The notes under the pieces are model-generated. The model saw only the letters and a list, made by a program, of their open reading frames with translations, was not told the origin of the DNA and made no database searches. This document shows positions 34,776 to 47,687 of a stretch of 64,000 bases of DNA, piece after piece. The first letter of the stretch is position 1; every line of letters begins with the position of its first letter. The DNA lies in the NCBI GenBank assembly GCA_001799675.1, contig MGTX01000006.1, positions 44,316 through 108,315 of the forward strand, in the 5' to 3' direction. A program made the translations under genes and the position numbers. The stretch comes from Elusimicrobia bacterium GWA2_66_18. Lineage in GTDB: Bacteria > Elusimicrobiota > Elusimicrobia > UBA1565 > UBA9628.

Positions 34776-36008
34776 CTAATCGATGTCGGTCTTTTGGCTC
34801 GCAAGGAGTTTGTGGAGACCGTGCATGGTGACGATCTTGACCCCGTGATGGATATATTCCTCCTTCCCGGCATAGACCAGAGCGGCTCCGCGACTCTTGG
34901 GAAACACCTTGGCGTAATGGAGGAGGCCCTTGAAGTAGTCGCTCGCGACCGTGGCCCCGGCTTTGACCTCGATCGGCAAGGCGTCGCTCCCGCGGCCATA
35001 TAACAGGTCCACCTCGTTGCCGACGTTGTCTCGGTAGAATGCCAACTGGCTGCGTTGCCCCCGATGGAGGCGATGCTTGAGCGCTTCGGCCACCACGAGG
35101 TTCTCAAACAAGCCCCCGCGCAGCGGATCGCGGGCGACTTGATTCTCGTTCTCCAGCCCCAGGAGGCTACAGGCCAACCCCGTATCGTAGAAGTAAAGCT
35201 TGGGCGTCTTGACCAAACGCTTGCGAACGTTGGCGTGGTGCGGCTCCAGGAGGAATACGATGTACCCGGCTTGAAGCAATGTGATCCAGGCTCGTGCCGT
35301 GGTGTGAGACACGCCTGCGTCGCTGCCCAGCGAATGAAGATTCAGCAATCCCCCGACCCGGCCGGCGCACAGCCGTACGAATCGCTCAAAGAGGTTCAAG
35401 TCTTTCACGGATACCAGTTGGCGCAGGTCCCGCTCGATGCAGGTTTCCATATAGTCGCCGTAGAATCTCGCGGGCTCCAAGCTCTCCCTGTGGAGACGCG
35501 GATAGAACCCGGCCAGCATCAAGCGATCTATGGAAACGTTTTGGAGATCATGCGGCATTTCATCGAGGCTCAAGGGTAGCAATTTCAAGACCGCCGTCCG
35601 CCCGGCCAGGGACTGGCTGATGCGCGTCATGACCTCGAACTGCTGGCTGCCGGTCAGGATAAATAGGCCGTTGCGGCGCTCGCTATCCACCACTTCCTGC
35701 AAGTAGGACGCCAGTTGCGGCGCGCGTTGGATTTCGTCAAGGATCGCTCCATCCGGAATACCCGCCAGGAAACCCCGGGGGTCTTCGGTCGCAAGCCTTC
35801 GCGTATCCGGATTTTCGAGATTGACATAGGCCTTGAGAGGAAACGCCCGCCGGCACAAGGTCGTCTTTCCGCTCTGTCGCGGCCCGGTCATCGTCAGGAC
35901 CGGGTACTGCTTTGCCAATGAGATAAGGAGCGGCTCCAGTGTATTTACATTTTGCAAGTATAACTTTCCAATTGCAATATTTACGGAAGTGGCCGGGCCC
36001 CTTTCCAT
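34776..36008 (-). CDS. AAA-family ATPase with DUF4143-type C-terminal domain (AAA_14/DUF4143 ATP-binding protein)
   Basis: 410 aa; Walker A TGPRQSGKTTL, Walker B FILDEIQ; GC ~58%, clearly below flanks. Confidence 0.75.
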   Translation of the reverse strand: MERGPATSVNIAIGKLYLQNVNTLEPLLISLAKQYPVLTMTGPRQSGKTTLCRRAFPLKAYVNLENPDTRRLATEDPRGFLAGIPDGAILDEIQRAPQLASYLQEVVDSERRNGLFILTGSQQFEVMTRISQSLAGRTAVLKLLPLSLDEMPHDLQNVSIDRLMLAGFYPRLHRESLEPARFYGDYMETCIERDLRQLVSVKDLNLFERFVRLCAGRVGGLLNLHSLGSDAGVSHTTARAWITLLQAGYIVFLLEPHHANVRKRLVKTPKLYFYDTGLACSLLGLENENQVARDPLRGGLFENLVVAEALKHRLHRGQRSQLAFYRDNVGNEVDLLYGRGSDALPIEVKAGATVASDYFKGLLHYAKVFPKSRGAALVYAGKEEYIHHGVKIVTMHGLHKLLASQKTDID

Positions 36009-36122
36009 GGCCGCCGGAGCTTACGTGGCCTCAAGCTCCGAGCATGAAATACAAAGAATCGAGAGAGGACGAGCGGAATTCCTGGGGGATCGCTCTTTAG
36101 CACATCGCCGGGCGGGAGGCTA

Positions 36123-36893
36123 TCAGCGCTTACGGCCCTTCCTGGACTTGGCGTAGGCCAGCATGTCGGCCTCGACTTTTTCAAGCAGGCCGTCGCCGAT
36201 CTCCCAGACCTCCAGGCCCTTGAGCCTGGCCTCGATCTTGCGCGCAAGCGCGTCATCGATGAAGGGCGTGACCTTGCCCTTCTTGTACTCGGCCTCCTTC
36301 TCGGCGTAGAGGCCGAGGAAGGTCTTGTCGCGAAACCACGCTTCGCGGTTGGAGGATGCTTCCAACCGGCGGAGGAGCTCCGGGCTCGGGTCGCGCTGGA
36401 CGAACTCGAAGAAGACGGCCGTCGGGCGGCCGCCCGGAACCATCCACTCGCCGCTGAAGACCTGGATCAGGTCCTCTTCGGCGTCCTTGAGCACCGGCGT
36501 GATGAAGTTGACGCCGCGATCCAAAGCATAGCGATGGAACGACGGCAGATCGGGAGTTCGCAAAGCGATATGCTGCCAGTGGCCGCCCCCGCCCCGGTTC
36601 TTGAGCATCGTGCGGACATGAGAGCCCCGCCCCTTGGGCTCCGTGGGCTGGACCACCGCGACGATGGTCTGCGCGGGCGCGCGCGCGTCATCGGCCGCGC
36701 CCAGGCGCGAGGCGAAGGTCATGGAGGCGGGCTTCTTCTGTCCGGGCCAGTCGGAGCGTTTCTCGTAGATCAGGTCCTCGCGGGTCACCCCGAAGATGAC
36801 GCGGAAGAGCGCGTAGGTCGTCTTGTACAGGTCGGGCTCGACGAGGAAGGTCATGTGGTCGACGACGAAGTTGTGGAAAGGCTGCTTTTTCAT
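36123..36893 (-). CDS. VOC-family dioxygenase-like protein resembling (short) 4-hydroxyphenylpyruvate dioxygenase
   Basis: FVVDHMTFLV (N-terminal VOC His), GGGGHWQHIALRTPDL and GGRPTAVFFEFVQR resembling HPPD motifs GxQHIAL / RPTLFFEIIQR; only 256 aa (canonical HPPD ~350 aa). Confidence 0.55.
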   Translation of the reverse strand: MKKQPFHNFVVDHMTFLVEPDLYKTTYALFRVIFGVTREDLIYEKRSDWPGQKKPASMTFASRLGAADDARAPAQTIVAVVQPTEPKGRGSHVRTMLKNRGGGGHWQHIALRTPDLPSFHRYALDRGVNFITPVLKDAEEDLIQVFSGEWMVPGGRPTAVFFEFVQRDPSPELLRRLEASSNREAWFRDKTFLGLYAEKEAEYKKGKVTPFIDDALARKIEARLKGLEVWEIGDGLLEKVEADMLAYAKSRKGRKR

Positions 36894-37504
36894 AAGAGCG
36901 CCTCCGGGCGGGGGAGTTCGAAGTCATCGCGGGTGCGGGCGTACCAGGAGCCTTCCAGCCGTCCGACGGTCTTCAGGTCCTGATGCCTGATCTTGCCGCC
37001 GTTCCATATCTCGTCCTTGCAGTGGAATCGCACCACTTTGCCGATGACGAGGTTGCCTCCGAGGGGGCCTTCGGCGAGCGTCACGATTTGCAGGAGCTCG
37101 CATTCCATCGAGACCGGGCTTTCGGCTAAGCGGGGCGGCTTGACCGACGTCGAGGGCAGGGGCGTCAGGCCGGCCTTCTCGAACTCGCTGACGCCGTAGG
37201 GATAGGCGGCGGCGGTGAGGTTCATCTTCTCGACGGTCTCCTCATTGGCGATGTTGATCACGAATTGCCGGGTCGTTTCGACGTTGATGAGGGTGTCTTT
37301 CTTCTTGCCGTTGCGGTCGTTGACGGGAGCAAAGCACACGGACATGGGATTGGCGGCGATGCCGGTGAAGAAGCTGAACGGCGCGAGATTGGGGATGCCC
37401 TCGGGGGATAGGGACGATATCCAGGCGATGGGTCGGGGCTGGATCACGGCGATGAGCAGGCCGTAGCGGTCCCGGGCGCGCAGAGACTCGGGGTCGAGGT
37501 CCAT
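36890..37504 (-). CDS. flavin reductase-like FMN-binding protein
   Basis: C-terminal 204 codons of ORF 36890..38344 starting MDLDPESLRARDRYGLLIAVIQPRPIAWISS... (Flavin_Reduct pattern). Confidence 0.7.
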   Translation of the reverse strand: MDLDPESLRARDRYGLLIAVIQPRPIAWISSLSPEGIPNLAPFSFFTGIAANPMSVCFAPVNDRNGKKKDTLINVETTRQFVINIANEETVEKMNLTAAAYPYGVSEFEKAGLTPLPSTSVKPPRLAESPVSMECELLQIVTLAEGPLGGNLVIGKVVRFHCKDEIWNGGKIRHQDLKTVGRLEGSWYARTRDDFELPRPEALL

Positions 37505-38727
37505 CAGGACGCAGAGACGCCCTGGGTGTCGCGGTTCCAACTCGCGGGGTAGTCCTTGTCCGCCACGCCCAGGGCCTGCCTGGCCACGCGCAGGGGCTCG
37601 AAGAAGGTGTCCAGCATGACGGCAAGGTAGTCGGAGAGCTTGCCGCGCTCGGCGAAGGATCGTCGCGCCGCCATCCCGTGCGGGGAGTGCGGCAGCGAGC
37701 CGGGATGGAAGGTCAACGAGCCCGGCTCCACGAGCCCTTTGCGGGCCCCGTAGCTGGTGTTCGAGAAGAACATCACCTCGTCGGAGTCGACGTTGAAATG
37801 GGCGTAGGGCGCGGGGACGTCGAGCGGATGCCAGCCCTCCATCTGTCCCTTGAAGGTGCAGACGGCGAATCCGTCGTGCGGGGCGTGCCCGGACTGGAAG
37901 GTCTGGCGCGTCGGGGGGGCCGTGTGCGTCTGCTTGGCGAGGGGATGCTGGTCGTCGGTGTGGAAGGCGTACGGGTAGAGAGCGCCTTCCCAGCCGATCA
38001 GGTCGAAGGGGTGGTGGCCCAGGAACATCTCGGTGACGAAGCCGCCGTCGTGTTTGGTCCACACGCGGAAGAGCCCGTCCTCGTCTCGCGGCGGGCGGAA
38101 CTCGGGCAGGTCGACCTCGGTCTCGACCACCGGGGCCATGAGCGTGGCCTGGCCCGAGGCGTTGAGGTGGTGGGGGGCGAACTGGATGGGGAAGCGCGAC
38201 TCGACCATCAGGAGCAAGCAGTCCTCGCTCTCCAACTCCAGGCGGTAGGTCGTGCCCTTGGGGACGACCACGTAGTGGCCGGGACGGAAGGCCAGCACGC
38301 CGTACTCGCTGGCCAGGAGGCCTCGTCCTTCCTGCACGAACCACAGCTCGTGGCCGTCGCCGTTGCGGAAGAACCGGTCGGCGGGGCAGGACTTCTCGAA
38401 ATGGGCGGCGCCGACGAGCGTGTGGGTTCCGTAGACGAGGGGCACGCGGCCGCTGACCGCGTCGCCGTGCGCCTTGAGCCGGCTCGTGCGCAGGTGCCAG
38501 GGCTGCAGGGGCAGGGGCGGCAGGGGCTGGGGCCTCAGGTCGAGAGGGAGCTTATGCGCGTCGCGCACCTGCTGGGTCGGGTATTTCCGGTAATGATACT
38601 TGCGCGACCAGTCGCCGCTGAAGCCGGAAACGCCGTGGATCTCCTCGAGGGCCAGGACCTCGGGCTCCGAGTAATACTCCGTGTGCGGGGTCCTGGGCGC
38701 CCGGCCTCGCGTGAGGATGACGCTCAT
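37504..38727 (-). CDS. hmgA: homogentisate 1,2-dioxygenase-like cupin protein
   Basis: 407 aa; overall resemblance to HmgA incl. FRNGDGHELWFVQEG and His/Glu metal ligands in C-terminal cupin; sits between HPPD-like and FAH genes. Confidence 0.7.
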   Translation of the reverse strand: MSVILTRGRAPRTPHTEYYSEPEVLALEEIHGVSGFSGDWSRKYHYRKYPTQQVRDAHKLPLDLRPQPLPPLPLQPWHLRTSRLKAHGDAVSGRVPLVYGTHTLVGAAHFEKSCPADRFFRNGDGHELWFVQEGRGLLASEYGVLAFRPGHYVVVPKGTTYRLELESEDCLLLMVESRFPIQFAPHHLNASGQATLMAPVVETEVDLPEFRPPRDEDGLFRVWTKHDGGFVTEMFLGHHPFDLIGWEGALYPYAFHTDDQHPLAKQTHTAPPTRQTFQSGHAPHDGFAVCTFKGQMEGWHPLDVPAPYAHFNVDSDEVMFFSNTSYGARKGLVEPGSLTFHPGSLPHSPHGMAARRSFAERGKLSDYLAVMLDTFFEPLRVARQALGVADKDYPASWNRDTQGVSAS

Positions 38728-39758
38728 GGGGCATAGCTCCCGTCGCGGTTGTATTTGAGATGCGTCGCGCCTTTCGGGGCGCCGACCTTGTTCTTGAGCA
38801 CGCCGAGCGGCCCCGCGTCGAGCTCGATTTCATCTCCGGGCTTGATCCAGCGGTCCAGGTCGAGGCCGCAGCCTTTGTGATAGGCGCCCGAGCCCAGGAG
38901 GTCGCCGGGAAGCAGGGTCTCGCTTTGCGAGGCGTGCGACAGCATTACGGCGAACGACCAATAAGGCTGGGCGCCGTGGGAGCGGCTCCATTGCTCGCCG
39001 TTGACCCGGACCTTCAGATCGGGAATCCGTCCATCCCATTCATCGGCCGTCAAGAGCCACGGTCCGATTGCCGTCGCGAAATCCTTCCCCTTGGCCGGGC
39101 CCATGCGGCTGAGCATCTCGTTCTTCTGGATGTCGCGCGCCGAGCAGTCGTTCATCACGATGTAGCCCGCGATGTGCCGGTCGGCGCTCGCGACCGGGAT
39201 ATCTCGTCCCCGGCGGCCGACGACCGCGGCCACCTCGAACTCGAAATCGAGTTTGCGGGTGTAGTCCGGCCAGGGGATCTCGTCGCCGGGCCCGTACATC
39301 TCGCGCGGATTGCCCTTGTAGTAGACGGGCTGCTCGTACCAGGCCGGGAGCATCTCTTCCTTTCGCCGCGCCGCGCCGGCCTTGGCATGGTCTTCGAAAG
39401 CGAAGAAATCCCGCAGCGAGCGGGGCCGGGGCAGGGGAGCCCGCGGCCGTATCTCGGACTCGTTCCAGAGGATGCGCTCTCCGCGCGGGCCCGCGGGTTC
39501 GCCTTCCAGGGCGTCGAGGGCTCTCTTCGCTTCGGCCAGGGCTTCGTCCCCCCGGTCGAGCAAGCCCAGCATGCAGGAGGGGACGAAGAAGTCGGCCCGC
39601 TCGCGGGGCCGGGTCTTGCCCTGCGCTTCATAAAGGAGGGCGGCGGCGAGGTTGAGGTCGGCGACGCGTCCGTCGCGCCGGGCGCCCAGGCGCTCGACGG
39701 GGCCCAGCGGCGTGGCGACCTCGAAGGTGACGAGTCTCACGATTTTTAATCGTAGCAA
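38724..39758 (-). CDS. fumarylacetoacetate hydrolase (FAH) family protein
   Basis: 344 aa; FAH-fold motifs (...IVMNDCSARDIQ...GTPxG-like); ATG overlaps hmgA stop. Confidence 0.75.
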   Translation of the reverse strand: MLRLKIVRLVTFEVATPLGPVERLGARRDGRVADLNLAAALLYEAQGKTRPRERADFFVPSCMLGLLDRGDEALAEAKRALDALEGEPAGPRGERILWNESEIRPRAPLPRPRSLRDFFAFEDHAKAGAARRKEEMLPAWYEQPVYYKGNPREMYGPGDEIPWPDYTRKLDFEFEVAAVVGRRGRDIPVASADRHIAGYIVMNDCSARDIQKNEMLSRMGPAKGKDFATAIGPWLLTADEWDGRIPDLKVRVNGEQWSRSHGAQPYWSFAVMLSHASQSETLLPGDLLGSGAYHKGCGLDLDRWIKPGDEIELDAGPLGVLKNKVGAPKGATHLKYNRDGSYAP

Positions 39759-39780
39759 ATCCCCGGCTCGGTCTTAGCCG

Positions 39781-40437
39781 TCAGCGGAGCAGGGAGAGGA
39801 CCTTCACGGGCGTGAGACTCCGGAAATCACGCACGCGCAGGCGCGCGTGGCGGAACTCGTCGGCCGCATGGGAGGTCGTGACGGCCACGACCGGCATCCC
39901 GGCCCGCCGCGCGGCTTCCTCGCCCAGCAGAGAGTCCTCGAAGACGACGCAGTCGCGCGGCCGTACCCTGAGGCGCTCGGCCAGCAGGAGGAAGGTCTCC
40001 GGGTCGGGCTTGCCTTTGGTCACCATCCCGCCGTCGACGACCGCGTCGAAGGAGCCCCTCAGTCCGAGGCCGTCCAAGATGAAGGCCACGTTGTCGTCCT
40101 TGGAGCCCGTGCCCAGCCCGAGCCTCAGTCCCTCGTCGCGCGAGGCGTCCAGGAAGTCCCGCAGGCCCGCGGCGGCGCGGCGCTTGGGGAGGTAGAGCTT
40201 GCGGTAGAGCGTCTCCTTGGCGACGGCGTGCTCGTGCGCCTCCCGGGGAGGGACCTCGCGCTTGAAATAATAGCGCAGGACCTCGCGGGTGGGCATGCCC
40301 ATGGTGTTCGCGCGGAAGTCCTGGAGTTCGATCTTGATGCCGTGGCGGCAAAAGAAGCGGCGCCAGGCCTCCTCGTGGGCGGGCATGTTGCGACAGACCA
40401 CGCCGTCCATGTCGAAGAGCAATCCTCGAGGTTTCAT
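39781..40437 (-). CDS. HAD-superfamily hydrolase (beta-phosphoglucomutase-like subfamily IA)
   Basis: LLFDMDGVV (motif I DxDG), ...GSKDD..., FEDS..G. Confidence 0.75.
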   Translation of the reverse strand: MKPRGLLFDMDGVVCRNMPAHEEAWRRFFCRHGIKIELQDFRANTMGMPTREVLRYYFKREVPPREAHEHAVAKETLYRKLYLPKRRAAAGLRDFLDASRDEGLRLGLGTGSKDDNVAFILDGLGLRGSFDAVVDGGMVTKGKPDPETFLLLAERLRVRPRDCVVFEDSLLGEEAARRAGMPVVAVTTSHAADEFRHARLRVRDFRSLTPVKVLSLLR

Positions 40438-40449
40438 CGGCTGGAGATT

Positions 40450-41442
40450 CTAGCCGACCCCGGCCGAAGCCGCTTTCAATAGCTTGAGCCAGAGAGATGA
40501 GACCAAATATCCCGTCGCCTTCTTGGCGCTCACCCAGCGCGCTTCCTGCGGAAGCTTCCTTCCTTCGGGCCACGCCGCTTCTCGGAGTTCGACGCTCAGA
40601 GCGTGATGGGTGATGGCGTGACTCACCGCGGCAAGCCTTCTCCCCGGCACGGCGGCGATCTGTCGCGCTTCCGGGAGTCCCCAAAGATCTTTCAACAGGC
40701 GCTCCTTCTGAGAGCGCCGCCAGATCAATATTTTTTCGTTGCGGAGGATCCAAAAACATACCCATCTGACCGCAATGACTTCCCGCCGTTTTTCCGGGGT
40801 GGGCAGCCGATCCTGAAGTTCCTTCTTATGGGCCACGCAGACGTTCGCGACCGGGCAGACGCCGCATGAGGGAGAGCCGGGCGTGCAGACCGTCGCTCCC
40901 AACTCCATGAGGGCTTGGTTCCAGTCTCCGGGATCTTTTTTGGGGACGAGAGTTGCCGCGAGGCTCCAGATCCTTTTGATGAAGGCCGGGTCCTTGGCCC
41001 TGCCGCGCAGGCCGAAAAGACGCGAGAAGACCCGGATGACGTTGCCGTCGACGACGGGATACGGCCGGCGGAAGGCGATGGAGAGGATGGCCCCGGCGGT
41101 GTAGCGCCCGATGCCGGGAAGGGCCAGCACGGCGTCGAAGTCGGAGGGGAACGTCCCGCCGTGCCGAGACATGACCTCGAGGGCGGCGCGACGGAGGTTG
41201 CGGGCGCGGCGGTAGTAGCCCAGGCCCGCCCATCGCTCGAGAACCTCGTCTTCGGTCGCGGTCGCGAGGGCCGACAGGTCCGGGAAGCGGCGCAGAAAGC
41301 GCTCGTACTTGGCGGCGACGGAGGCGGCCGTGGTCTGTTGGAGCATGATTTCCGAGACCCAGGTCCGGTAGGGGGAGACCCGGCGCCGCCAGGGCATGTC
41401 GCGGCGCGCGAGGCGATACCAGCGCAGGAGCCGCGCGTGCAC
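40450..41442 (-). CDS. mutY: A/G-specific adenine DNA glycosylase MutY
   Basis: HhH-GPD motif (LPGIGRYTAGAILSIAF), 4Fe-4S Cys cluster CTPGSPSCGVCPVANVC, C-terminal NUDIX-like domain. Confidence 0.85.
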   Translation of the reverse strand: MHARLLRWYRLARRDMPWRRRVSPYRTWVSEIMLQQTTAASVAAKYERFLRRFPDLSALATATEDEVLERWAGLGYYRRARNLRRAALEVMSRHGGTFPSDFDAVLALPGIGRYTAGAILSIAFRRPYPVVDGNVIRVFSRLFGLRGRAKDPAFIKRIWSLAATLVPKKDPGDWNQALMELGATVCTPGSPSCGVCPVANVCVAHKKELQDRLPTPEKRREVIAVRWVCFWILRNEKILIWRRSQKERLLKDLWGLPEARQIAAVPGRRLAAVSHAITHHALSVELREAAWPEGRKLPQEARWVSAKKATGYLVSSLWLKLLKAASAGVG

Positions 41443-41446
41443 GCGG

Positions 41447-41737
41447 TTATTCCTGGATGACGAGGTTGTTGAGGATATGGTCCACGCCGCGGGTCCGGCG
41501 CACGAGCCGGTCGATGAGGCGTTGCTGCTCGAGGTCGGGCACCAGGCCGGAGACCGTGGCGATGCCCGAGTGGACGTCTACGGTGACGTATCGAAGGTCC
41601 AGCTCCGGACGGCCTTTGAGCTGCAACTCGATGTTGGCTTTGACCGCGGGGTCGGAGAGATCCTCCTCCTGGACCGTGCGGGTGCAGGAGCACAGAGCCA
41701 GGGCCAGCAGGAGAGCCCCGGCGAAAGATCGTTTCAC
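41447..41737 (-). CDS. small BON-domain lipoprotein (OsmY-like), probable GTG start
   Basis: VKRSFAGALLLALALCSCTR (lipobox LALC) then BON-like ...VTVDVHSGIATVSGLVPDLEQQRLIDRLVRRTRGVDHILNNL; only believable part of antisense ORF 41447..43819. Confidence 0.55.
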   Translation of the reverse strand: MKRSFAGALLLALALCSCTRTVQEEDLSDPAVKANIELQLKGRPELDLRYVTVDVHSGIATVSGLVPDLEQQRLIDRLVRRTRGVDHILNNLVIQE

Positions 41738-41743
41738 GGGAAA

Positions 41744-44059
41744 ATGATAACATACGCTCCCGTGCTTCGCCAGACCGCCAGACTCGTCCTCGCCACGCGC
41801 AACGCGCACAAGGCCGCCGAGATCTCCCGCCTCCTGGAGGGTTCGGGCGTCGAGTGCGCTGCTCTCGACGCATATCCCGGCGTGCCCGAGGTCGAGGAGG
41901 ACCTCGACACCTTGGAAGGCAACGCCGCCAAGAAGGCCGAGCAGACGGCGCGGGCCTGCGGGACCTGGGCCCTGGCAGACGACACGGGTCTGGAGGTCGC
42001 AGCCCTCAACGGCGCGCCGGGCGTCTTCTCCGCGCGCTGGGCGGGTCACGGCTGTTCCTACGCCGACAACTGCGCCAAGCTCCTGCGCGAACTGTCCGAC
42101 GTGCCCGCGCCCCGGCGCGCGGCGAGCTTTCGGACCGTGATGGCCCTGAGCGGCCCCGACGGGCGCGTGGAGACGGTCGAAGGCCGCCTCGATGGGACCA
42201 TCGCCTCGGCCCCGCGCGGGACGGGAGGCTTCGGCTACGACCCTCTCTTTCTCCTGCCGGACGGCCGTACGCTCGCGCAACTCGGGGCCGACGAGAAGAA
42301 CGCCTTGAGCCATCGAGGCCGCGCCCTGCGCGAGATCCTCCCGCGTCTGAAGGCCCTGGCGCTGGGCGCCGTGCTCTCGCTCCTGGTTGCGGACGTCAGC
42401 GCCTCGAAGACGGAGCCGGGTCAGGAGACGATCTGGGACCAGATCATGGCCGCCCAGGCCCAGCGCGGACTGCGCCAGGGGCACAGGTACCTCGAGGAAA
42501 AGAAGTACGACCTGGCGATGCAGGAGATCAAGCGCGCGGTCGCCGGCAACCCCAAGGACCCGCTCGGGCGCCTCCTCCTCGGCGTAGCGCAGTATTGGAG
42601 CGGCGCGGTGGACGAATCCATCGCCTCCTACCAGGCCGCCCTGGCGCTGGACCCGGGCAACGCCCAAGGCCATCTCTTGCTCGGCATCTCCCACGCCTGG
42701 CAGGGCGACGCCTCGGCGGCGGAGGCCGAGTTCCACCGCGCCGTGGAACTGGACCCCGCGCGCGCCGACGCGCAGATGAACCTGGGCTCCATCCGAGAGA
42801 CCTTCGGCGACTATCCCGGCGCGCTCGAGCGCTTCCGGCTCGCCGTCGATCTGGAGAAGCGCAACCCGCTCTACCGGTTCCAACTGGGCTCGCTCTATCG
42901 CAAGCTGGGCCGCGATGCCGACGCCCTGGAGCAGTTCCGCGAGGCGGTGAAGATCGAGTCGAGCTACGAGGACGCCATGCTGGAGATGGGCTGCGCCCAG
43001 GAGCGGCTCAAGGACGCTAAGGGCGCCATCGCGACCCTGCGCCGCGCGGTGGACCTCAAGCCCGGCGACTCGGTGGCGCGCATGCGCCTGTCCCGCCTCT
43101 ACCTGGCCGTGGGCCGGCCCCGGAAGGCGCGCGCGATCTTGGCCGAGGCCTTCCATCTCACGCCGGAAGAGGGCGGCTCCGGCCTCCAGCTCTCGGTCGC
43201 CTACGCCTCGGGCCGCAAACCCGCCTCCGAGACCGGCGGACCGGCCGGCTCCGCCGAACCGGAGCCGGCCGTCGAGCTCGAGCCCGCCGACCCGCTCTCC
43301 CTGTTCGAGCGCAACTTGCGGCGCGTGCCCCTGGAGCAGGCCGCGGTCATGCACATGGACGCGGTCTTCCTGCCGCGCCCCAAGCTGCTCAAGGAGGGCC
43401 CGAAGGAGGGATCGAGCCTGCGCCGCGCCCTGGCCCGCGCCGGCGCCGGCGGCGACGACGCGGCGCCCCGCGCGGTCCGGCGCGACTTCATCCTGACCGC
43501 GTCCGACGCCGTCGCGCGCGAGAAGCAGGTCGCCGACATCATGGGCGAGATGCGTCAGGTCATGCGCGAGGCCCCGCCGGAGGCGGACGCGCGCCTGGGC
43601 ATGAACCTCACCTTCACGCGTCCGGTGGACGCGGGCCGCTCCGACGGAGCCGCTCCCTCGAAGGTGAGCTACCAGCCGCGCCAGGTCGGCAACGACATGG
43701 GCCTGTGGGTCATCGGCACGGGCTGGATGGCGCTGGTCGCCGAGGTCCTCCCGGAGCCGGGAGAGAAGGCAGCCTTCCCCGAGGACGCGGACGGGTGGAC
43801 CGCGATCGGATTGGCCCACGCCACCGTCGGCGAGGGCCAGCGGGCCATGGAGGCGTTCCTGAACGCGACCCGCCTTGACCTGCGCTCGGTCCCGGCGTGG
43901 CTCGGGCGCGGAGTGGCCGGCGTGATGACCGGCGATGATGCTGGAGCCGTGTCGGCGCTACGCACCGTCCTGGCCATCGACCCTAAGAACAAGGCCGCAA
44001 ACGACGGGCTCAAGTGGCTGCTGCGCCCCGCCCAGGCGAAGGAGACGCCGAAGAAATGA
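41744..44059 (+). CDS. fusion ORF: RdgB/Ham1 non-canonical purine NTP pyrophosphatase domain + signal/TM-like segment + large TPR-repeat domain
   Basis: Internal start MITYAPVLRQTARLVLATRNAHKAAEI...FGYDPLFL (Ham1) ... LKALALGAVLSLLVADVSAS ... >8 TPR-like repeats; no stop between the parts; upstream 116 codons of ORF 41396..44059 judged artefact. Confidence 0.7.
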   Translation: MITYAPVLRQTARLVLATRNAHKAAEISRLLEGSGVECAALDAYPGVPEVEEDLDTLEGNAAKKAEQTARACGTWALADDTGLEVAALNGAPGVFSARWAGHGCSYADNCAKLLRELSDVPAPRRAASFRTVMALSGPDGRVETVEGRLDGTIASAPRGTGGFGYDPLFLLPDGRTLAQLGADEKNALSHRGRALREILPRLKALALGAVLSLLVADVSASKTEPGQETIWDQIMAAQAQRGLRQGHRYLEEKKYDLAMQEIKRAVAGNPKDPLGRLLLGVAQYWSGAVDESIASYQAALALDPGNAQGHLLLGISHAWQGDASAAEAEFHRAVELDPARADAQMNLGSIRETFGDYPGALERFRLAVDLEKRNPLYRFQLGSLYRKLGRDADALEQFREAVKIESSYEDAMLEMGCAQERLKDAKGAIATLRRAVDLKPGDSVARMRLSRLYLAVGRPRKARAILAEAFHLTPEEGGSGLQLSVAYASGRKPASETGGPAGSAEPEPAVELEPADPLSLFERNLRRVPLEQAAVMHMDAVFLPRPKLLKEGPKEGSSLRRALARAGAGGDDAAPRAVRRDFILTASDAVAREKQVADIMGEMRQVMREAPPEADARLGMNLTFTRPVDAGRSDGAAPSKVSYQPRQVGNDMGLWVIGTGWMALVAEVLPEPGEKAAFPEDADGWTAIGLAHATVGEGQRAMEAFLNATRLDLRSVPAWLGRGVAGVMTGDDAGAVSALRTVLAIDPKNKAANDGLKWLLRPAQAKETPKK

Positions 44060-45462
44060 CGCGCCAAGACGACGACCGAGCCATGATGAAATCGTTCGTC
44101 AAGAGCATCCACTTCGTGGGGATAGGCGGCGTGGGCATGAGCGGCATTGCCGAGGTCCTCAACAACCTCGGCTACCGGGTGTCCGGCTCCGACGTGAAAT
44201 CCACGGAGATCACCCGCCGCCTGCAGGCCGCGGGCGTGCGCGTCTTCGAGGGTCACCGCGCCGCGCACGCCAAGGGCGCGCAGGTCGTCGTCGTCAGCTC
44301 CGCCGTGGCCGAAGACAACCCAGAACTGGCCTACGCCCGCAAGCGCGCCGTTCCCGTGGTCTTGCGCGCGCAGATGCTCGCCGAGCTCGGACGCATGAAG
44401 AAGACCGTGACCGTGGCCGGCTCCCACGGCAAGACCACGACCACCTCCATGGTCGCCATGGCCCTGAGCTCGGCCGGCGCCGAGCCGACCATCATCATCG
44501 GCGGCCAACTCAAGAACATCCGCTCCAACGCGCGGCTGGGCGTGGGCGAGTACCTCGTCGCGGAGGCCGACGAGTCCGACGGGTCCTTCCTTTTTCTCGC
44601 TCCGCTCGTCGGCGTGGTCACGAACGTGGACGACGACCACCTGGACCACTACAAGACCATGGACGCGCTCAAGGACGCCTTCGTGGCCCATCTCCAGCGC
44701 CTGCCCTTCTACGGCGCGGCCGTGCTCTGCGCCGACGACGCCGTCCTCATGTCGCTGCGCCCGCGCGTGACGTGTCCCGTGGTGACCTTCGGCGCGTCGA
44801 ACGACGCGGACTGGCGCGCGCGCGGCGTGCGTCTGACCAAGGACGGCTCCGTCTGCGAGGTCCTGCACAAAGGCCGGCGCGCGCTCACCCTCCGGTTGAG
44901 GGTCCCCGGCCGACACAACGTCTCCAACGCACTGGGCGCCCTCGCGGCGGGGCACTACCTCGGCTTCGACCTCAAGCGCCTGGCGCGCGGGCTATCCGAG
45001 TTCCGCGGCGTGGGCCGGCGCCTGGATCGTCTGGGCGCGGCCGGCGGCGTGGAGTTCGTCGACGATTACGGCCACCACCCCACCGAGGTCCGCGTCACGC
45101 TTGCCGCGGTCTCCGGGCTCTGGAAGGCGGGGCGCGTCATCGTGATCTTCCAACCCCATCGTTACTCGCGCACCCAGCGGTTGGCCAAGGACTTCGGGCC
45201 GGCCTTTAAGGGCGCGGATTTCGTCTGGGTCATGGACGTCTATCCCGGAGGGGAGAAGCCGCTCCAGGGTGTGAGCTCGAAGCTCATCCTCGACTCCCTC
45301 GCCAAGGCGGGAGTCAAGGCCGCGGCCTTCCCGGGGTCGCGCGAGTTGGCCAAGCAGCTCAAGCCCGACGACGTGGTCTTGACCCTGGGCGCCGGGGATG
45401 TGTGGAAGGCGGCCGAGGACCTGCTCCGCCGGCTCCGCGGGCAGGGCGCCGCGCCCATCTAA
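44056..45462 (+). CDS. murC: UDP-N-acetylmuramate--L-alanine ligase MurC
   Basis: Start MTRQDDDRAMMKSFVKSIHFVGIGGVGMSGIA; GSHGKTTTT P-loop; ATG overlaps previous stop. Confidence 0.92.
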   Translation: MTRQDDDRAMMKSFVKSIHFVGIGGVGMSGIAEVLNNLGYRVSGSDVKSTEITRRLQAAGVRVFEGHRAAHAKGAQVVVVSSAVAEDNPELAYARKRAVPVVLRAQMLAELGRMKKTVTVAGSHGKTTTTSMVAMALSSAGAEPTIIIGGQLKNIRSNARLGVGEYLVAEADESDGSFLFLAPLVGVVTNVDDDHLDHYKTMDALKDAFVAHLQRLPFYGAAVLCADDAVLMSLRPRVTCPVVTFGASNDADWRARGVRLTKDGSVCEVLHKGRRALTLRLRVPGRHNVSNALGALAAGHYLGFDLKRLARGLSEFRGVGRRLDRLGAAGGVEFVDDYGHHPTEVRVTLAAVSGLWKAGRVIVIFQPHRYSRTQRLAKDFGPAFKGADFVWVMDVYPGGEKPLQGVSSKLILDSLAKAGVKAAAFPGSRELAKQLKPDDVVLTLGAGDVWKAAEDLLRRLRGQGAAPI

Positions 45463-45465
45463 GCC

Positions 45466-46239
45466 ATGGGCTCCAAGCTCAGCCAGCACTTCCTCACGGA
45501 CCAGGGCGCCCTCCAGGACATCGTTGCCGCCTCCGGGATACGTCCCGGCGACGCGGTGCTCGAGATCGGCCCCGGGCGCGGGGCGCTGACCGGGTCCCTT
45601 CTCGCGGCCGGCGCGCGCGTGACCGCCGTCGAGATGGATGACGCCTTCGCCGCGGCTCTGCCCAGGCTGATCAAGGAAGCCGAGCGCCTGGTCGTCGTCA
45701 ACGAGGACTTTCTTCTTTTCGATCTCGCCGCCCTCGGCCCCGGCCCGTGGATCGTGGTCGGCAACCTGCCCTACGCCGTGGGCACGCCCATTCTCCAGAA
45801 GCTCCTCCGCTGGGACGCATGGACGACGGCCGCGCTCATGTTCCAGAAGGAGGTCGCCCTGCGCGCGGTGTCGGGCACGGGGGGCGCCGACTACGGCCTG
45901 TTGTCGCTCTCCGTGGGCCTGCGCGCCGACGCGGAGGTGGTCCTGGAGCTTCCGCCCGAGGCCTTCCGGCCGCGGCCGAAGGTCGACTCCGCCGTCGTCC
46001 TCTTGCGGCGTCTGCCCCAGCCGCGCGTGCCGGCCGAGGATGAACGCGCTTTCTGGCGCCTAGCCAAGGCGGCCTTCGCCCAGCGCCGCAAGATGGCCGC
46101 GGGCGTGATCGCCCAAGCGCTCGGCCGCCCGAGGACCGAGGTCGAGGCCGCCTTCGCGTCGGCGGGCGTGCCCGCCGACGCGCGGCCTGAGAAGATCGGC
46201 TTGTCGGCTTGGGCCGCCCTGGCTAAGGCCTTGCGATGA
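45466..46239 (+). CDS. rsmA: 16S rRNA (adenine1518/1519-N6)-dimethyltransferase RsmA (KsgA)
   Basis: GQHFL motif (SQHFLTD), SAM motif LEIGPGRGALT, NLPY. Confidence 0.88.
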   Translation: MGSKLSQHFLTDQGALQDIVAASGIRPGDAVLEIGPGRGALTGSLLAAGARVTAVEMDDAFAAALPRLIKEAERLVVVNEDFLLFDLAALGPGPWIVVGNLPYAVGTPILQKLLRWDAWTTAALMFQKEVALRAVSGTGGADYGLLSLSVGLRADAEVVLELPPEAFRPRPKVDSAVVLLRRLPQPRVPAEDERAFWRLAKAAFAQRRKMAAGVIAQALGRPRTEVEAAFASAGVPADARPEKIGLSAWAALAKALR

Positions 46240-47687
46240 GCCGCCGCCGCGCGCTGATCCTGCTGGCGGCCGCGGCGTTGTTCTGGCTCTGCCGCCGCGC
46301 CTACTTCGTCGGCTACTTCAACGACGACGCCTATTACCTCATCGGGGCTAAGTCGCTGCTGTCGGGGCGCTACGCGGAGGTCTCCGCGCCCGGCGCGCCC
46401 CCGCTCGTCAATTACCTGCCCGGATGGCCGCTCCTGCTGGCCCCCGTGCTGGCGCTGACGGGGGCGAGCCTCCCCGCCGCCCAGGCCTTCGCGGTCATGC
46501 TGCTCATCGCCGGCCTGGGTTTCTTCGCCCGCGTCTTCGAGCGCGAGTCCGGCGTCGAGGCCGCGGACCTGGCGCTGGCTTGCGCGGCGGTCTCGCCTCT
46601 GCTGTCAAGCACCGCGGCGACCCTGCTCTCCGACGGGCCCATGCTCTTCTGCGCGGGCGCGGCACTCGCCGTCCTGCCGCGCCTGTGGCGCAGACGCGAA
46701 GAGCGCGTTTGGCTTGGATTCGGGCTGGCGTTGGGACTGGCCGCGCTCGTGCGCCCCACGGGGCTGGCTCTAGCCGCCGCCGTTGCGGCCGTCCTCCTCG
46801 CCGAGAAGCGCATCGCGTCGGCGCTCGGCGTCTTCGCCGTCGCGACCCTGGTCCTCGGGGCGTGGCTGGGGCGCAACGCCCTGCTCTCGGGGGCGGGCTG
46901 GAACTACTGGAGAGAAGCGAGCGCGGCCGCCCGCGCGGGAGGCATCCCCTTCTTCGCCAACGCCTGGGCCTGCGTGGATGCGCTCTTCGCACGCTCGCTC
47001 TTGAGGCCTCCGACGCCGAGCGCGTTCTGGGAAGCGGCCGCCGCGCTGGCGGGGCTCGGCCTGGCGCTTGCCGGCGGCCGGGGCCTCAAGACCCCGTCCG
47101 GCCGGGCGGCCGCGCTCTTCGCCGCGCTCTTCGCGCTGCCGCATCTCGTCTGGTCCAAGACGGCCGCGCGTTACTTCATCCCGCTTCTGCCCATCGCGGC
47201 CTGGCTCTTCCTGCGCGGCGCCGCCCGGCTGGGGCCGCGGATGACGCGCGCCGCCGCCGCCCTGTCGGTCGCGCTGTCTGCGATGGCGACGGCGGGGGTC
47301 GTGCGCGCGTCCTGGTCGCCCTCCACGTCCCGGAACCTGCCCCCGCGGCAGGCCGCGGACTGGCTGGGCTCGCGCGCCCGTCCCGGCGCGGTCGTGGCGG
47401 CGGAGTACGACGCGCGCTGGCACATCCTCACGGGGCTGCCCTGCGTCCACATCCCCTACGACGCGCGCACGCCTCAGGCCCTGGACCGCTTCCTTGCCGA
47501 CTCGCGGGTTTCGTTCGTTGTGGTCGAGGACACCGCCGACGGGCTCAAACCCGCCGCGGGCGCCTACTCCGTGCCCGACGCTTCCTCCCTGCGCGGCCTT
47601 CTCGGCGCCGTGAAAAGAGCCCGTCTTGTCCATTCGGACGGGGCGGGCCGCGTCGAGGTGTGGTTCGTTCGTCCGCTCATTTGGTAA
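46236..47687 (+). CDS. polytopic membrane protein, PMT/ArnT-like (GT39/GT83-type) glycosyltransferase candidate
   Basis: 483 aa, N-terminal loop YFVGYFNDDAYYLIGAKSLL (DD/DE motif position typical of GT-C), many TM helices. Confidence 0.55.
   Translation: MSRRRALILLAAAALFWLCRRAYFVGYFNDDAYYLIGAKSLLSGRYAEVSAPGAPPLVNYLPGWPLLLAPVLALTGASLPAAQAFAVMLLIAGLGFFARVFERESGVEAADLALACAAVSPLLSSTAATLLSDGPMLFCAGAALAVLPRLWRRREERVWLGFGLALGLAALVRPTGLALAAAVAAVLLAEKRIASALGVFAVATLVLGAWLGRNALLSGAGWNYWREASAAARAGGIPFFANAWACVDALFARSLLRPPTPSAFWEAAAALAGLGLALAGGRGLKTPSGRAAALFAALFALPHLVWSKTAARYFIPLLPIAAWLFLRGAARLGPRMTRAAAALSVALSAMATAGVVRASWSPSTSRNLPPRQAADWLGSRARPGAVVAAEYDARWHILTGLPCVHIPYDARTPQALDRFLADSRVSFVVVEDTADGLKPAAGAYSVPDASSLRGLLGAVKRARLVHSDGAGRVEVWFVRPLIW

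What the first reader, a model, noticed from the sequence alone, without database searches (positions are those of the whole stretch)
41744..44059. In-frame fusion of RdgB/Ham1 dITP/XTP pyrophosphatase to a signal-like segment and a large TPR domain, with near-zero spacing to a divergent BON-lipoprotein gene
Residues ~10-200 are a complete Ham1/RdgB house-cleaning NTPase (LVLATRNAHKAAEI ... FGYDPLF). Without any stop the frame continues into LKALALGAVLSLLVADVSAS, which looks like a signal peptide or TM helix, and then >8 TPR repeats (~570 aa). RdgB is normally a stand-alone ~200-aa cytoplasmic protein. Either this is a genuine fusion anchoring RdgB to a TPR scaffold, a readthrough created by loss of the rdgB stop, or the TPR protein starts at an internal non-ATG codon. 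The divergent BON-domain lipoprotein gene (GTG start ~41737) begins only ~7-25 bp from the RdgB start, so their promoters must lie inside coding sequence. The BON gene heads the minus-strand operon containing mutY and the homogentisate genes.
Basis: seen in the sequence. Interest (0 to 1): 0.5.

Follow-up and report, generated by a model that had tools for sequence, protein, structure and literature searches.

The report
RdgB fused to exported TPR protein
In this Elusimicrobia genome the house-cleaning nucleotide pyrophosphatase gene rdgB has merged with the next gene, which encodes an exported TPR protein, so a complete secretion signal with a signal-peptidase site now sits in the middle of one long protein; the merger is real, is shared by about three quarters of related species, and has been undone repeatedly in the rest.

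Summary
One uninterrupted + strand frame encodes a complete RdgB/Ham1 domain (residues 14-199), one hydrophobic segment (199-220) and a TPR protein. It is not a base-calling error: 40 of 54 informative GTDB species representatives, all Elusimicrobiota, carry the same fusion. Twelve have rdgB and the TPR gene as separate adjacent genes, mostly with ATGA/GTGA stop/start overlaps. In those, the TPR protein starts with a classical Sec signal peptide.

In the fusions, the RdgB C-terminal tail (LPRLK) acts as the signal's n-region. A variable hydrophobic run follows (median 15 residues). The -3/-1 cleavage motif is strictly kept: -1 is A/G/S in 88 of 88 proteins. The invariant mature N-terminus [KR]TEPGQETIWDQIM comes next.

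Best reading (inferred, not shown): a one-gene, two-product precursor. The internal signal exports the TPR part, and signal peptidase I releases it. RdgB stays cytoplasmic or membrane-tethered. The main rival is an uncleaved signal anchor.

Fused and split states alternate about ten times on the tree. The true start is probably GTG 41762, not ATG 41744. The ATG lies inside a conserved bidirectional extended -10 motif, which explains the near-zero spacing to the BON gene. Interest is moderate.

The parts
41742..41754 (.). Conserved bidirectional extended -10-like motif (aaTGaTAACAT on +; aTGtTATCAT on -) between the BON and rdgB starts
   Evidence: A motif of the form TGnTAnnAT (or a close variant) is present upstream of rdgB in 47 of 48 related loci. 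In 29 of them the first in-frame GTG/TTG/ATG lies 8 or 10 nt after the hexamer. The BON start usually lies 7 nt from the other side of the motif. Its function as a promoter is inferred. A -35/-10 consensus scan found nothing here.
41762..44059 (+). Fused rdgB-TPR ORF from the probable GTG start (765 aa plus stop); the alternative ATG 41744 gives 771 aa
   Evidence: The frame is open. It is 100% identical to the 765-aa NCBI protein P0001 from 'Elusimicrobia bacterium GWA2_6...'. The start position holds GTG, TTG or ATG in relatives.
41783..42340 (+). RdgB/Ham1 (d)ITP/XTP pyrophosphatase domain, residues 14-199 (numbered from ATG 41744)
   Evidence: Pfam PF01725 E 2e-60. TIGR00042 scores above its cutoff. 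The best solved relative is 6wwd at E 3e-46, with the catalytic motifs aligned. The model superposes on E. coli RdgB 2q16 at TM 0.92, rmsd 1.6-1.8 A. Motif residues are at least 90% conserved in 89 family members.
42338..42403 (+). Internal Sec-type signal segment, residues 199-220: n-region LPRLK (the RdgB C-terminal tail), h-region ALALGAVLSLLVA, c-region DVSA; predicted signal peptidase I site A220|S221 (nt 42403|42404)
   Evidence: It is the only hydrophobic segment in the protein. In 88 fused homologues -1 is A 84, G 2, S 2; -3 is A/S/V/C/L/G; -4 is Pro in 66%; the uncharged run has a median of 15 residues. Split relatives have an N-terminal signal peptide at the same place. The model is a helix up to residue 216 and disordered from 217 to 229. 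Cleavage is inferred, not shown.
42404..44056 (+). Predicted mature exported TPR protein, residues 221-771, beginning SKTEPGQETIWDQIM
   Evidence: The N-terminal motif [KR]TEPGQETIWDQIM is nearly invariant in fused and split forms. Unfused homologues of 530-600 aa occur throughout Elusimicrobiota.
42431..43144 (+). TPR block 1, residues 230-467 (about 8.5 repeats)
   Evidence: Pfam TPR families. Seventeen paired helices with pLDDT mostly above 90. Foldseek matches consensus TPR proteins.
43157..43741 (+). Non-TPR insert, residues 472-666: a disordered Pro/Glu-rich linker plus an alpha/beta domain, with the conserved motif PRQVGNDMGLWVIGTGWM
43787..44020 (+). TPR block 2, residues 682-759 (about 2.5 repeats)
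   Evidence: PF23914 TPR_CcmH_CycH at residues 679-752. Five helices with pLDDT 85-98.
44056..45462 (+). murC, whose ATG overlaps the fusion's TGA (ATGA); rsmA/ksgA follows at 45466-46239
   Evidence: Sequence. Mur ligase domains and RrnaAD. The same 4-nt overlap and gene order occur in L001 and L049.
41447..41737 (-). Divergent BON-domain protein gene with a signal or lipobox-like N-terminus (VKRSFAGALLLALALCSC), followed by mutY at 40450-41442
   Evidence: PF04972 BON E 6e-9; mutY has HhH-GPD, an FeS cluster loop and NUDIX_4. BON-mutY lies divergent from rdgB in L001/L002 as well.

Best explanation
This is a genuine, lineage-wide gene fusion. The housekeeping rdgB gene has merged with the next gene in its operon, which encodes a Sec-exported TPR protein. 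The merger came from losing the overlapping stop/start junction.

The fused protein keeps a full Sec signal (n-, h- and c-regions with an AxA-type site), but at residue ~200 instead of at the N-terminus.

Proposed mechanism:
1. RdgB (~200 aa) is made first and folds in the cytoplasm.
2. The internal signal, whose positive n-region is RdgB's own C-terminal tail, engages the Sec machinery with an N-in orientation.
3. The TPR part is translocated to the periplasm.
4. Signal peptidase I cuts after A220 (V-S-A|S-K-T).

The result is the same mature TPR protein that split relatives make, plus an RdgB carrying a short C-terminal hydrophobic tail. That RdgB is either membrane-tethered or released after the tail is degraded.

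Shown: the fusion, its conservation, an intact RdgB, the signal-like anatomy, the split relatives, and the repeated switching between fused and split states.

Inferred: export, orientation, cleavage, and the fate of the RdgB part.
For: Fusion is real:
- The frame is open.
- More than 115 full-length fused clusters, at 53-100% identity, come from NCBI, JGI, ENA and Logan.
- 40 of 54 informative GTDB species representatives are fused, including the complete chromosome CP096137.

Origin:
- 12 species plus the metagenome loci L001/L002 have rdgB immediately upstream in another frame.
- Most of these show ATGA/GTGA overlaps.
- Each split TPR protein starts with a classical signal peptide ending AxA|x[KR]TEPGQ.
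- More distant homologues are unfused proteins of 530-600 aa.

Cleavable-signal anatomy in the fusions (88 proteins):
- -1 is A 84, G 2, S 2.
- -3 is only A, S, V, C, L or G.
- -4 is Pro in 66%.
- The h-region positions are highly variable: the majority residue reaches only 19-47%, with 8-15 residue types per position.
- The uncharged run has a median of 15 residues (range 7-19), and K/R precedes it in 73 of 88.
- The deepest fused lineages also keep AKA|D, CRA|E and AAA|G.
- The model shows the cleavage region disordered between two well-folded parts.

Equivalence of the two states: the split state appears in about 10 separate lineages nested among fused ones. That is easiest to explain if both states yield the same products.

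RdgB is intact.

Precedent: bacterial type I signal peptidases cut bitopic N-in proteins after their membrane segment (RsiP, RsiV). Changing RsiP's VQS site to VQA made its degradation constitutive (PMC8844934).
Against: - No experimental data exist for these uncultured organisms. SignalP and DeepTMHMM could not be run here.
- An optimal -3/-1 motif does not guarantee cleavage. PMC8277137 notes that not all signal sequences with optimal sites are processed, and that n- and h-region features matter. Here the 'n-region' is a 200-aa folded domain.
- Hydropathy is also compatible with a membrane anchor: the 19-residue Kyte-Doolittle mean is at least 1.6 in 74 of 88 proteins.
- AxA conservation could partly reflect frequent switching to the split state, where the motif is needed, rather than use in the fused state.
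- A conserved K/R at +2 is not ideal for Sec export. Split relatives share it, however.
Confidence: 0.55

Rival explanations
1. Uncleaved signal anchor. The hydrophobic segment is a permanent N-in/C-out transmembrane helix. The protein would then be a bitopic inner-membrane protein with RdgB on the cytoplasmic face and the TPR scaffold in the periplasm. That could tether nucleotide-pool sanitation to an envelope complex, or couple the two sides.
For: The 19-residue Kyte-Doolittle mean is 1.87 in the window and at least 1.6 in 74 of 88 homologues. AlphaFold draws one continuous helix from 190 to 216, running from RdgB's last helix into the segment. A long folded N-terminal extension can disfavour signal peptidase cleavage; PMC8277137 discusses n- and h-region effects in general. 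The fusion is kept in 40 species.
Against: The uncharged run has a median of only 15 residues and drops to 7-13 in some members, which is short for a stable span. The window's run, ALALGAVLSLLVA, is 13 residues and is followed by Asp. The -1/-3/-4 pattern is held far more tightly than the hydrophobic core, and an anchor has no need for it. About 10 reversions to separate genes argue that a covalent link is not required.
Confidence: 0.3
2. Two proteins by internal translation initiation. Ribosomes start again at a non-ATG codon just before the hydrophobic segment, so the TPR protein is made separately with its own N-terminal signal peptide. The long ORF would then be largely a formal readthrough.
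For: Split relatives use translational coupling at exactly this junction. The window has an in-frame TTG 34 codons and a GTG 12 codons before K222.
Against: The GTG would leave a hydrophobic core of only about 6 residues. The TTG lies inside the conserved KNALSHR motif, with no Shine-Dalgarno-like sequence. Seven fused loci (L007, L009, L013, L029, L034, L052, L056) have no ATG, GTG or TTG anywhere from 40 to 9 codons upstream. No start position is conserved. Without a stop codon there is no termination-reinitiation coupling.
Confidence: 0.07
3. Fully cytoplasmic fusion. The hydrophobic helix is buried or peripheral, and the TPR domain acts as a cytoplasmic scaffold for RdgB.
For: TPR domains are common in cytoplasmic proteins. 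AlphaFold gives no membrane information.
Against: Orthologous split genes encode the same TPR protein behind an unmistakable N-terminal signal peptide. The outgroup locus L049 places the gene next to a CsgG-like lipoprotein gene. The charge distribution follows the positive-inside rule: R201 and K203 come before the segment, and D217, E224 and E228 come after it.
Confidence: 0.05
4. Assembly or base-calling artefact that removed the rdgB stop codon in this one genome.
For: The source is a metagenome-assembled genome.
Against: The same fused junction is found in independent assemblies from many studies and in 40 species. Fused junctions are systematically shorter than split ones, not just shifted by one base.
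Confidence: 0.02

Closest known systems
RdgB/Ham1/ITPA non-canonical purine NTP pyrophosphatases (Pfam PF01725, TIGR00042; E. coli RdgB, PDB 1k7k/2q16)
   Same: The N-terminal 200 residues are a complete member. Sequence motifs, the predicted fold (TM 0.92 to 2q16) and family score thresholds are all met. In split relatives the same locus holds a normal stand-alone rdgB.
   Different: Canonical RdgB is a soluble protein of about 200 aa. Here its C-terminal helix runs straight into a hydrophobic export signal and 550 further residues.
Sec-type (signal peptidase I) signal peptides
   Same: The segment has a positive n-region, a variable hydrophobic core of 7-19 residues, a helix-breaking Pro at -4, and small residues at -3 and -1. 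It is positionally orthologous to true N-terminal signal peptides in split relatives.
   Different: It sits about 200 residues from the N-terminus, behind a folded cytoplasmic enzyme. Cleavage is unproven.
Bradyrhizobium japonicum FbcH, the cytochrome b/c1 precursor ('from one gene to two proteins', Thony-Meyer et al. 1991; cited from memory, not found in the paper library)
   Same: One bacterial ORF is thought to give two mature proteins, because an internal signal sequence is cut by signal peptidase after membrane insertion.
   Different: In FbcH both halves are subunits of one membrane complex. Here a cytoplasmic nucleotide-sanitising enzyme is joined to a periplasmic repeat protein with no evident functional link.
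Anti-sigma factors RsiP and RsiV, cleaved at site 1 by type I signal peptidases (PMC8844934)
   Same: The layout is N-in cytoplasmic domain, single membrane segment, signal peptidase site, then an extracytoplasmic domain. These proteins show that bacterial signal peptidases can cut such internal sites.
   Different: There, cleavage is regulated by a signal and destroys the protein as part of signalling. Here the site is canonical (AxA-like) and would presumably be cut constitutively.
Periplasmic or envelope TPR scaffolds (PilW, YbgF/CpoB, BamD, PrsT, MamA-like)
   Same: The protein has long runs of canonical TPRs behind a signal peptide. It scores sub-threshold against several of these NCBIfam models.
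   Different: No model reaches its cutoff. The protein also has a unique ~200-residue alpha/beta insert and a conserved N-terminal TEPGQETIWDQIM motif. The family appears restricted to Elusimicrobiota.

Membership tests
RdgB/Ham1 (PF01725, TIGR00042) | Profile score above the curated threshold | tested here: met
   PF01725 scores 204.3 bits against 22.5. TIGR00042 scores 148.0 against 145.35. More specific PRK equivalogs fall below their cutoffs.
RdgB/Ham1 (PF01725, TIGR00042) | Catalytic and substrate-binding motifs (T-x-N-x-x-K, E-E/D, N-A-x-x-K, A-D-D-S/T-G, S-A-R, F-R-T/F-H-C, G-F-G-Y-D-P, K-N-x-x-S-H-R) | tested here: met
   All motifs are present in the window protein and align with 6wwd and 3tqu. 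They are at least 90% conserved across 89 family members.
RdgB/Ham1 (PF01725, TIGR00042) | Ham1 fold | tested here: met
   Residues 12-200 have pLDDT around 90. Foldseek against 2q16_A/B gives TMt 0.92 and rmsd 1.6-1.8 A.
RdgB/Ham1 (PF01725, TIGR00042) | dITP/XTP/ITP pyrophosphohydrolase activity | not testable with these tools
   This needs an enzyme assay.
RdgB/Ham1 (PF01725, TIGR00042) | Stand-alone soluble protein of about 200 aa | tested here: not met
   The ORF is 765-771 aa and has an internal hydrophobic segment. Split relatives meet this feature.
Sec signal peptide cleaved by signal peptidase I | Tripartite n/h/c organisation with a positive n-region | tested here: met
   The window has R201 and K203, then ALALGAVLSLLVA, then DVSA. 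K/R precedes the core in 73 of 88 homologues, and the core has a median of 15 residues.
Sec signal peptide cleaved by signal peptidase I | Small neutral residues at -3 and -1 | tested here: met
   -1 is A/G/S in 88 of 88. -3 is A/S/V/C/L/G in 88 of 88. The window has V218 and A220.
Sec signal peptide cleaved by signal peptidase I | Location at the N-terminus of the precursor | tested here: not met
   The segment starts at about residue 199. No conserved internal start codon would make it N-terminal.
Sec signal peptide cleaved by signal peptidase I | Actual export and cleavage | not testable with these tools
   This needs proteomics or expression experiments. No signal-peptide predictor was available.
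Bacterial precursor split by an internal signal peptide (FbcH type) | One ORF whose two halves exist as separate genes or proteins elsewhere | tested here: met
   Twelve species and the loci L001/L002 have separate rdgB and TPR genes at the same locus.
Bacterial precursor split by an internal signal peptide (FbcH type) | Two mature polypeptides demonstrated | not testable with these tools
   No experimental data are available.
TPR repeat proteins | Multiple 34-residue helix-turn-helix repeats detected by profiles and by structure | tested here: met
   Fifteen or more Pfam TPR families score above their cutoffs. The model shows 22 paired helices. Foldseek matches consensus TPR proteins at E 1e-14.
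Named envelope TPR families (PilW, YbgF, PrsT, MamA, Tgl, GltE, BcsC, LapB) | NCBIfam equivalog score above cutoff | tested here: not met
   All fall far below cutoff, for example MamA at 102 against 200, PilW at 85 against 154 and PrsT at 97 against 312.

The most novel reading that the evidence does not exclude
The fused gene is a bacterial precursor that serves two compartments. A leaderless mRNA encodes a cytoplasmic house-cleaning enzyme and a periplasmic scaffold. Signal peptidase I separates them at a conserved internal AxA site, which leaves RdgB tethered to the inner membrane by the retained signal peptide. Because cleavage makes fused and split genes equivalent, the locus has flipped between the two states about ten times. 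That gives a natural series of matched controls for asking how the Sec machinery and signal peptidase handle a signal placed behind a folded 200-residue domain.
Probability: 0.45. Interest if true: 0.6.

Novelty: new variant of a known kind. Interest (0 to 1): 0.45.

Why it matters
- Annotation: these 765-aa proteins are currently labelled simply 'RdgB/HAM1 family pyrophosphatase' or 'tetratricopeptide repeat protein'. Either label hides half of the protein and its probable dual location.
- Protein targeting: internal cleavable signals behind large folded cytoplasmic domains are rare in bacteria. This clade offers 40 fused and 12 split natural variants of one locus, so the rules for n-region length, core length and cleavage could be tested on evolved sequences.
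- Genome evolution: the locus shows how 4-nt stop/start overlaps let neighbouring genes fuse and separate repeatedly when a downstream signal peptide can act as a built-in separator.
- No link between RdgB chemistry and the TPR protein is implied by the data. The fusion may be selectively near-neutral.

Tried and rejected
- Sigma-70 -35/-10 and terminator consensus scan of 41300-42500: no sites. The promoter inference rests on cross-species conservation instead.
- Foldseek of the whole model: only generic TPR and RdgB matches.
- NCBIfam: no TPR equivalog reaches its cutoff.
- Literature: no relevant paper mentions an RdgB-TPR fusion. The search for bacterial internal signal peptides with polyproteins gave only a virology paper. 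The FbcH papers are not in the library, so that precedent is cited from memory.
- Second rdgB or TPR paralogue in the window: none.
- My first regex-anchored -3/-1 count was out of register for some loci. I discarded it and redid the count.
- Hydropathy alone does not separate an anchor from a signal.
- Sequencing error, internal initiation and a fully cytoplasmic fusion were each considered and ranked low. The reasons are given under the rival explanations.
Full report
**1. What is in the sequence**

The + strand frame from ATG 41744 runs without a stop to the TGA at 44057-44059.

- Pfam places a complete Ham1p_like domain at residues 14-199 (E 2e-60). It also reports many TPR families at 240-490 and 680-760.
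- NCBIfam TIGR00042 (RdgB/HAM1) is met at 148.0 bits against a cutoff of 145.35. No named TPR family reaches its cutoff.
- The only strongly hydrophobic stretch in the protein is residues 198-216, with a 19-residue Kyte-Doolittle mean of 1.87.
- The minus-strand neighbour is a 96-aa BON-domain protein starting at GTG 41737, followed by mutY.
- murC starts at an ATG that overlaps the fusion's stop (ATGA, 44056-44059). rsmA follows.

**2. The fusion is not an artefact**

The window protein is 100% identical to a 765-aa NCBI entry from 'Elusimicrobia bacterium GWA2_6...'. More than 115 further clusters of 745-810 aa, down to 53% identity and from NCBI, JGI, ENA and Logan assemblies, carry both the Ham1 and TPR Pfam domains.

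A scan of GTDB species representatives with the C-terminal part returned 57 loci. All those with a taxonomic name are Elusimicrobiota.

I classified each locus by reading frame:

| State | Loci |
|---|---|
| Fused | 40, including the closed chromosome CP096137 (L029) |
| rdgB immediately upstream as a separate gene | 12 |
| TPR gene with no adjacent rdgB | 2 (L049, L050) |
| Truncated, uninformative | 3 |

**3. What the split relatives show**

A metagenome relative at 69% identity (P0107; loci L001/L002) has a 207-aa rdgB. Five bases downstream lies a 575-aa TPR gene starting MRTRYFLAIVSVGIFLAQPAWA|AKTEPGQ. Synteny is otherwise identical: mutY and BON are divergent, and murC and rsmA lie downstream.

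In the 12 split GTDB species:

- The two genes usually overlap by four bases, as ATGA or GTGA. This is the signature of translational coupling.
- Every TPR protein begins with a textbook signal peptide ending in a small-x-small motif just before x-[KR]-T-E-P-G-Q-E-T-I-W-D-Q-I-M.

More distant homologues in the 50%-identity representative library are almost all 530-600 aa. The named ones are all Elusimicrobiota.

So the TPR protein is ancestrally a stand-alone exported protein. The fusion arose by losing the rdgB stop/TPR start junction.

**4. Anatomy of the junction in the fusions**

Across 88 fused proteins, the RdgB C-terminal helix (…SHRGRALRAILPRL[KR]) runs directly into a hydrophobic run, then P-A-R-A, then x-[KR]-TEPGQETIWDQIM.

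Counted in register from the conserved mature N-terminus:

- Position -1 is Ala 84, Gly 2, Ser 2.
- Position -3 is Ala 57, Ser 16, Val 9, Cys 3, Leu 2, Gly 1.
- Position -4 is Pro in 66%, and -2 is Arg in 59%.
- Positions -18 to -7 are highly variable. The majority residue reaches only 19-47%, with 8-15 residue types per position.
- The uncharged run is 7-19 residues long, with a median of 15.
- A K or R precedes the run in 73 of 88.

The most divergent fused lineages (44-48% identity) keep AKA|D, CRA|E and AAA|G.

In the window the segment reads LPRLK-ALALGAVLSLLVA-DVSA|SKTEPGQ.

The AlphaFold model (mean pLDDT 82.5) shows:

- a confident Ham1 domain;
- one helix from 190 to 216;
- a disordered stretch at 217-229, exactly at the putative cleavage site;
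- TPR helices from 230 to 467;
- an alpha/beta insert from 472 to 666;
- TPR helices from 682 to 759.

The Ham1 part superposes on E. coli RdgB at TM 0.92. Its catalytic motifs are at least 90% conserved in the family. RdgB is therefore under purifying selection and presumably active.

**5. Mechanism**

The data are best explained by a precursor that carries an internal, still-cleavable Sec signal. RdgB folds in the cytoplasm. The signal inserts with an N-in orientation: R201 and K203 stay inside, and D217, E224 and E228 go outside. The TPR part is exported, and signal peptidase I cuts after A220.

Three arguments support this:

- The cleavage cassette is conserved much more tightly than the hydrophobic core.
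- The core length is typical of a signal peptide.
- A neighbour-joining tree of the mature parts places the split state in about ten separate lineages nested among fused ones. Such free switching is expected if both states give the same mature products.

Bacterial signal peptidases are known to cut N-in bitopic proteins after their membrane segment (RsiP, RsiV). Changing RsiP's VQS site to VQA made its degradation constitutive (PMC8844934). The cytochrome b/c1 precursor FbcH of Bradyrhizobium is an older one-gene, two-protein precedent, which I cite from memory.

None of export, orientation or cleavage is shown here. A good -3/-1 motif does not guarantee processing (PMC8277137), and hydropathy is also compatible with a permanent anchor. 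I put the cleaved-precursor reading at about 0.55 and the uncleaved anchor at about 0.3.

Internal initiation is unlikely. The window offers only a GTG that would leave a six-residue core, and a TTG inside the KNALSHR motif. Seven fused loci have no canonical start codon at all in the relevant 32 codons, and no position is conserved.

**6. How the states interconvert**

Some fissions are clearly derived.

- L010 is sister to the fused L006. It carries a palindrome with 66-nt arms that are 80% complementary, inserted at the junction.
- L016 carries a related palindrome with 38-nt arms that are 87% complementary.
- In both, the insert supplies the rdgB stop, a new start and part of the new signal peptide.
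- The right-arm end of the insert, GTCTTTGTGGTT, also occurs at the junction of the fused L012, inside the stretch coding FCVFVSLWF. This hints at insertion followed by partial deletion.
- In L001 the new signal-coding stretch is conspicuously AT-rich.

Which state is ancestral for the whole rdgB-adjacent clade is not settled by a midpoint-rooted neighbour-joining tree.

**7. The start codon and the spacing to BON**

In 47 of 48 related loci a motif of the form TGnTAnnAT lies between the BON and rdgB starts. Examples are aaaTGaTAACAT, aaTGaTACAAT and aaTGTACAAT. In 29 loci of the window's subclade, the first in-frame GTG, TTG or ATG follows the hexamer by 8 or 10 nt.

The reverse complement of the motif (TG-t-TATCAT) is again an extended -10, and it sits 6 nt from the BON GTG.

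ATG 41744 lies inside this motif, and its TG is the 'extended' TG. The conserved 'MITYAPV' peptide is therefore more plausibly conserved promoter DNA than coding sequence.

I infer three things:

- The real start is GTG 41762.
- The intergenic gap is 24 bp.
- A shared bidirectional -10 element drives two divergent leaderless, or nearly leaderless, mRNAs.

A standard -35/-10 scan finds nothing here, which fits an extended -10 promoter. Transcription-start mapping is needed to confirm any of this.

**8. What the TPR protein does**

This is unknown.

- The family appears restricted to Elusimicrobiota.
- The gene always precedes murC-rsmA.
- In the low-GC outgroup L049 it follows a CsgG-like lipoprotein gene and a small TPR gene, and it precedes a PF03266 NTPase.
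- Its alpha/beta insert has no convincing structural relative.

A role as a periplasmic envelope scaffold is the reasonable guess. Nothing ties it functionally to RdgB beyond the shared operon.

**9. Verdict**

The finding is real and is more than an annotation quirk. It is a clade-wide fusion of a cytoplasmic enzyme to an exported protein through a retained signal peptide, with natural split controls.

It is a new variant of known kinds (gene fusion; internal signal sequence), not a new kind of system, and the fusion may be close to neutral. Interest is 0.45.

Noticed in passing
window 41742-41754 (and the equivalent position in L001-L059): A near-palindromic extended -10-like motif (aaTGaTAACAT / aTGtTATCAT) is conserved in 47 of 48 loci between the divergent BON and rdgB genes. 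The start codons lie 6-10 nt from the hexamers on both strands, which suggests two divergent leaderless mRNAs. It also suggests that ATG 41744 is promoter DNA rather than the start codon.
   Followed up: partly
L010 3449-3586; L016 344-474; L012 around 3952: Palindromic inserts of about 130 nt (arms 66 nt at 80% complementarity and 38 nt at 87%; ends AACCAC[AG]AAGAC...GTCTT[TC]GTGGTT) sit exactly at the rdgB/TPR junction of two split species. They provide the stop, a new start and part of the new signal peptide. The right-arm end also occurs at the junction of the fused L012, inside the stretch coding FCVFVSLWF. This may be a small mobile or hairpin-forming element that drives fission and re-fusion.
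   Followed up: partly
L045 1761-1935: In this split species rdgB carries a C-terminal extension of about 50 residues with a CPCCG...CRRLCRGC four-cysteine pattern that looks like a zinc ribbon. No other locus has it.
   Followed up: no
L049 531-6076: In a low-GC Elusimicrobia outgroup the TPR gene has no rdgB upstream. A small TPR protein gene and a CsgG-like (PF03783) lipoprotein gene precede it. A PF03266 NTPase gene follows it, ahead of murC-rsmA.
   Followed up: partly
[not shown]
   Followed up: partly
window 44056-44059, 45462-45466 and 46236-46239: The fused gene, murC, rsmA and a PMT_2-family glycosyltransferase (46236-47684) are packed with 4-nt overlaps or 3-nt gaps. This suggests one translationally coupled operon behind the leaderless start.
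   Followed up: no
window 34776-40437, minus strand: Downstream of BON-mutY lie a HAD hydrolase, a fumarylacetoacetate hydrolase, a 483-aa protein with a C-terminal flavin-reductase domain, a 255-aa ORF with no Pfam hit, and an AAA_14/DUF4143 ATPase.
   Followed up: partly
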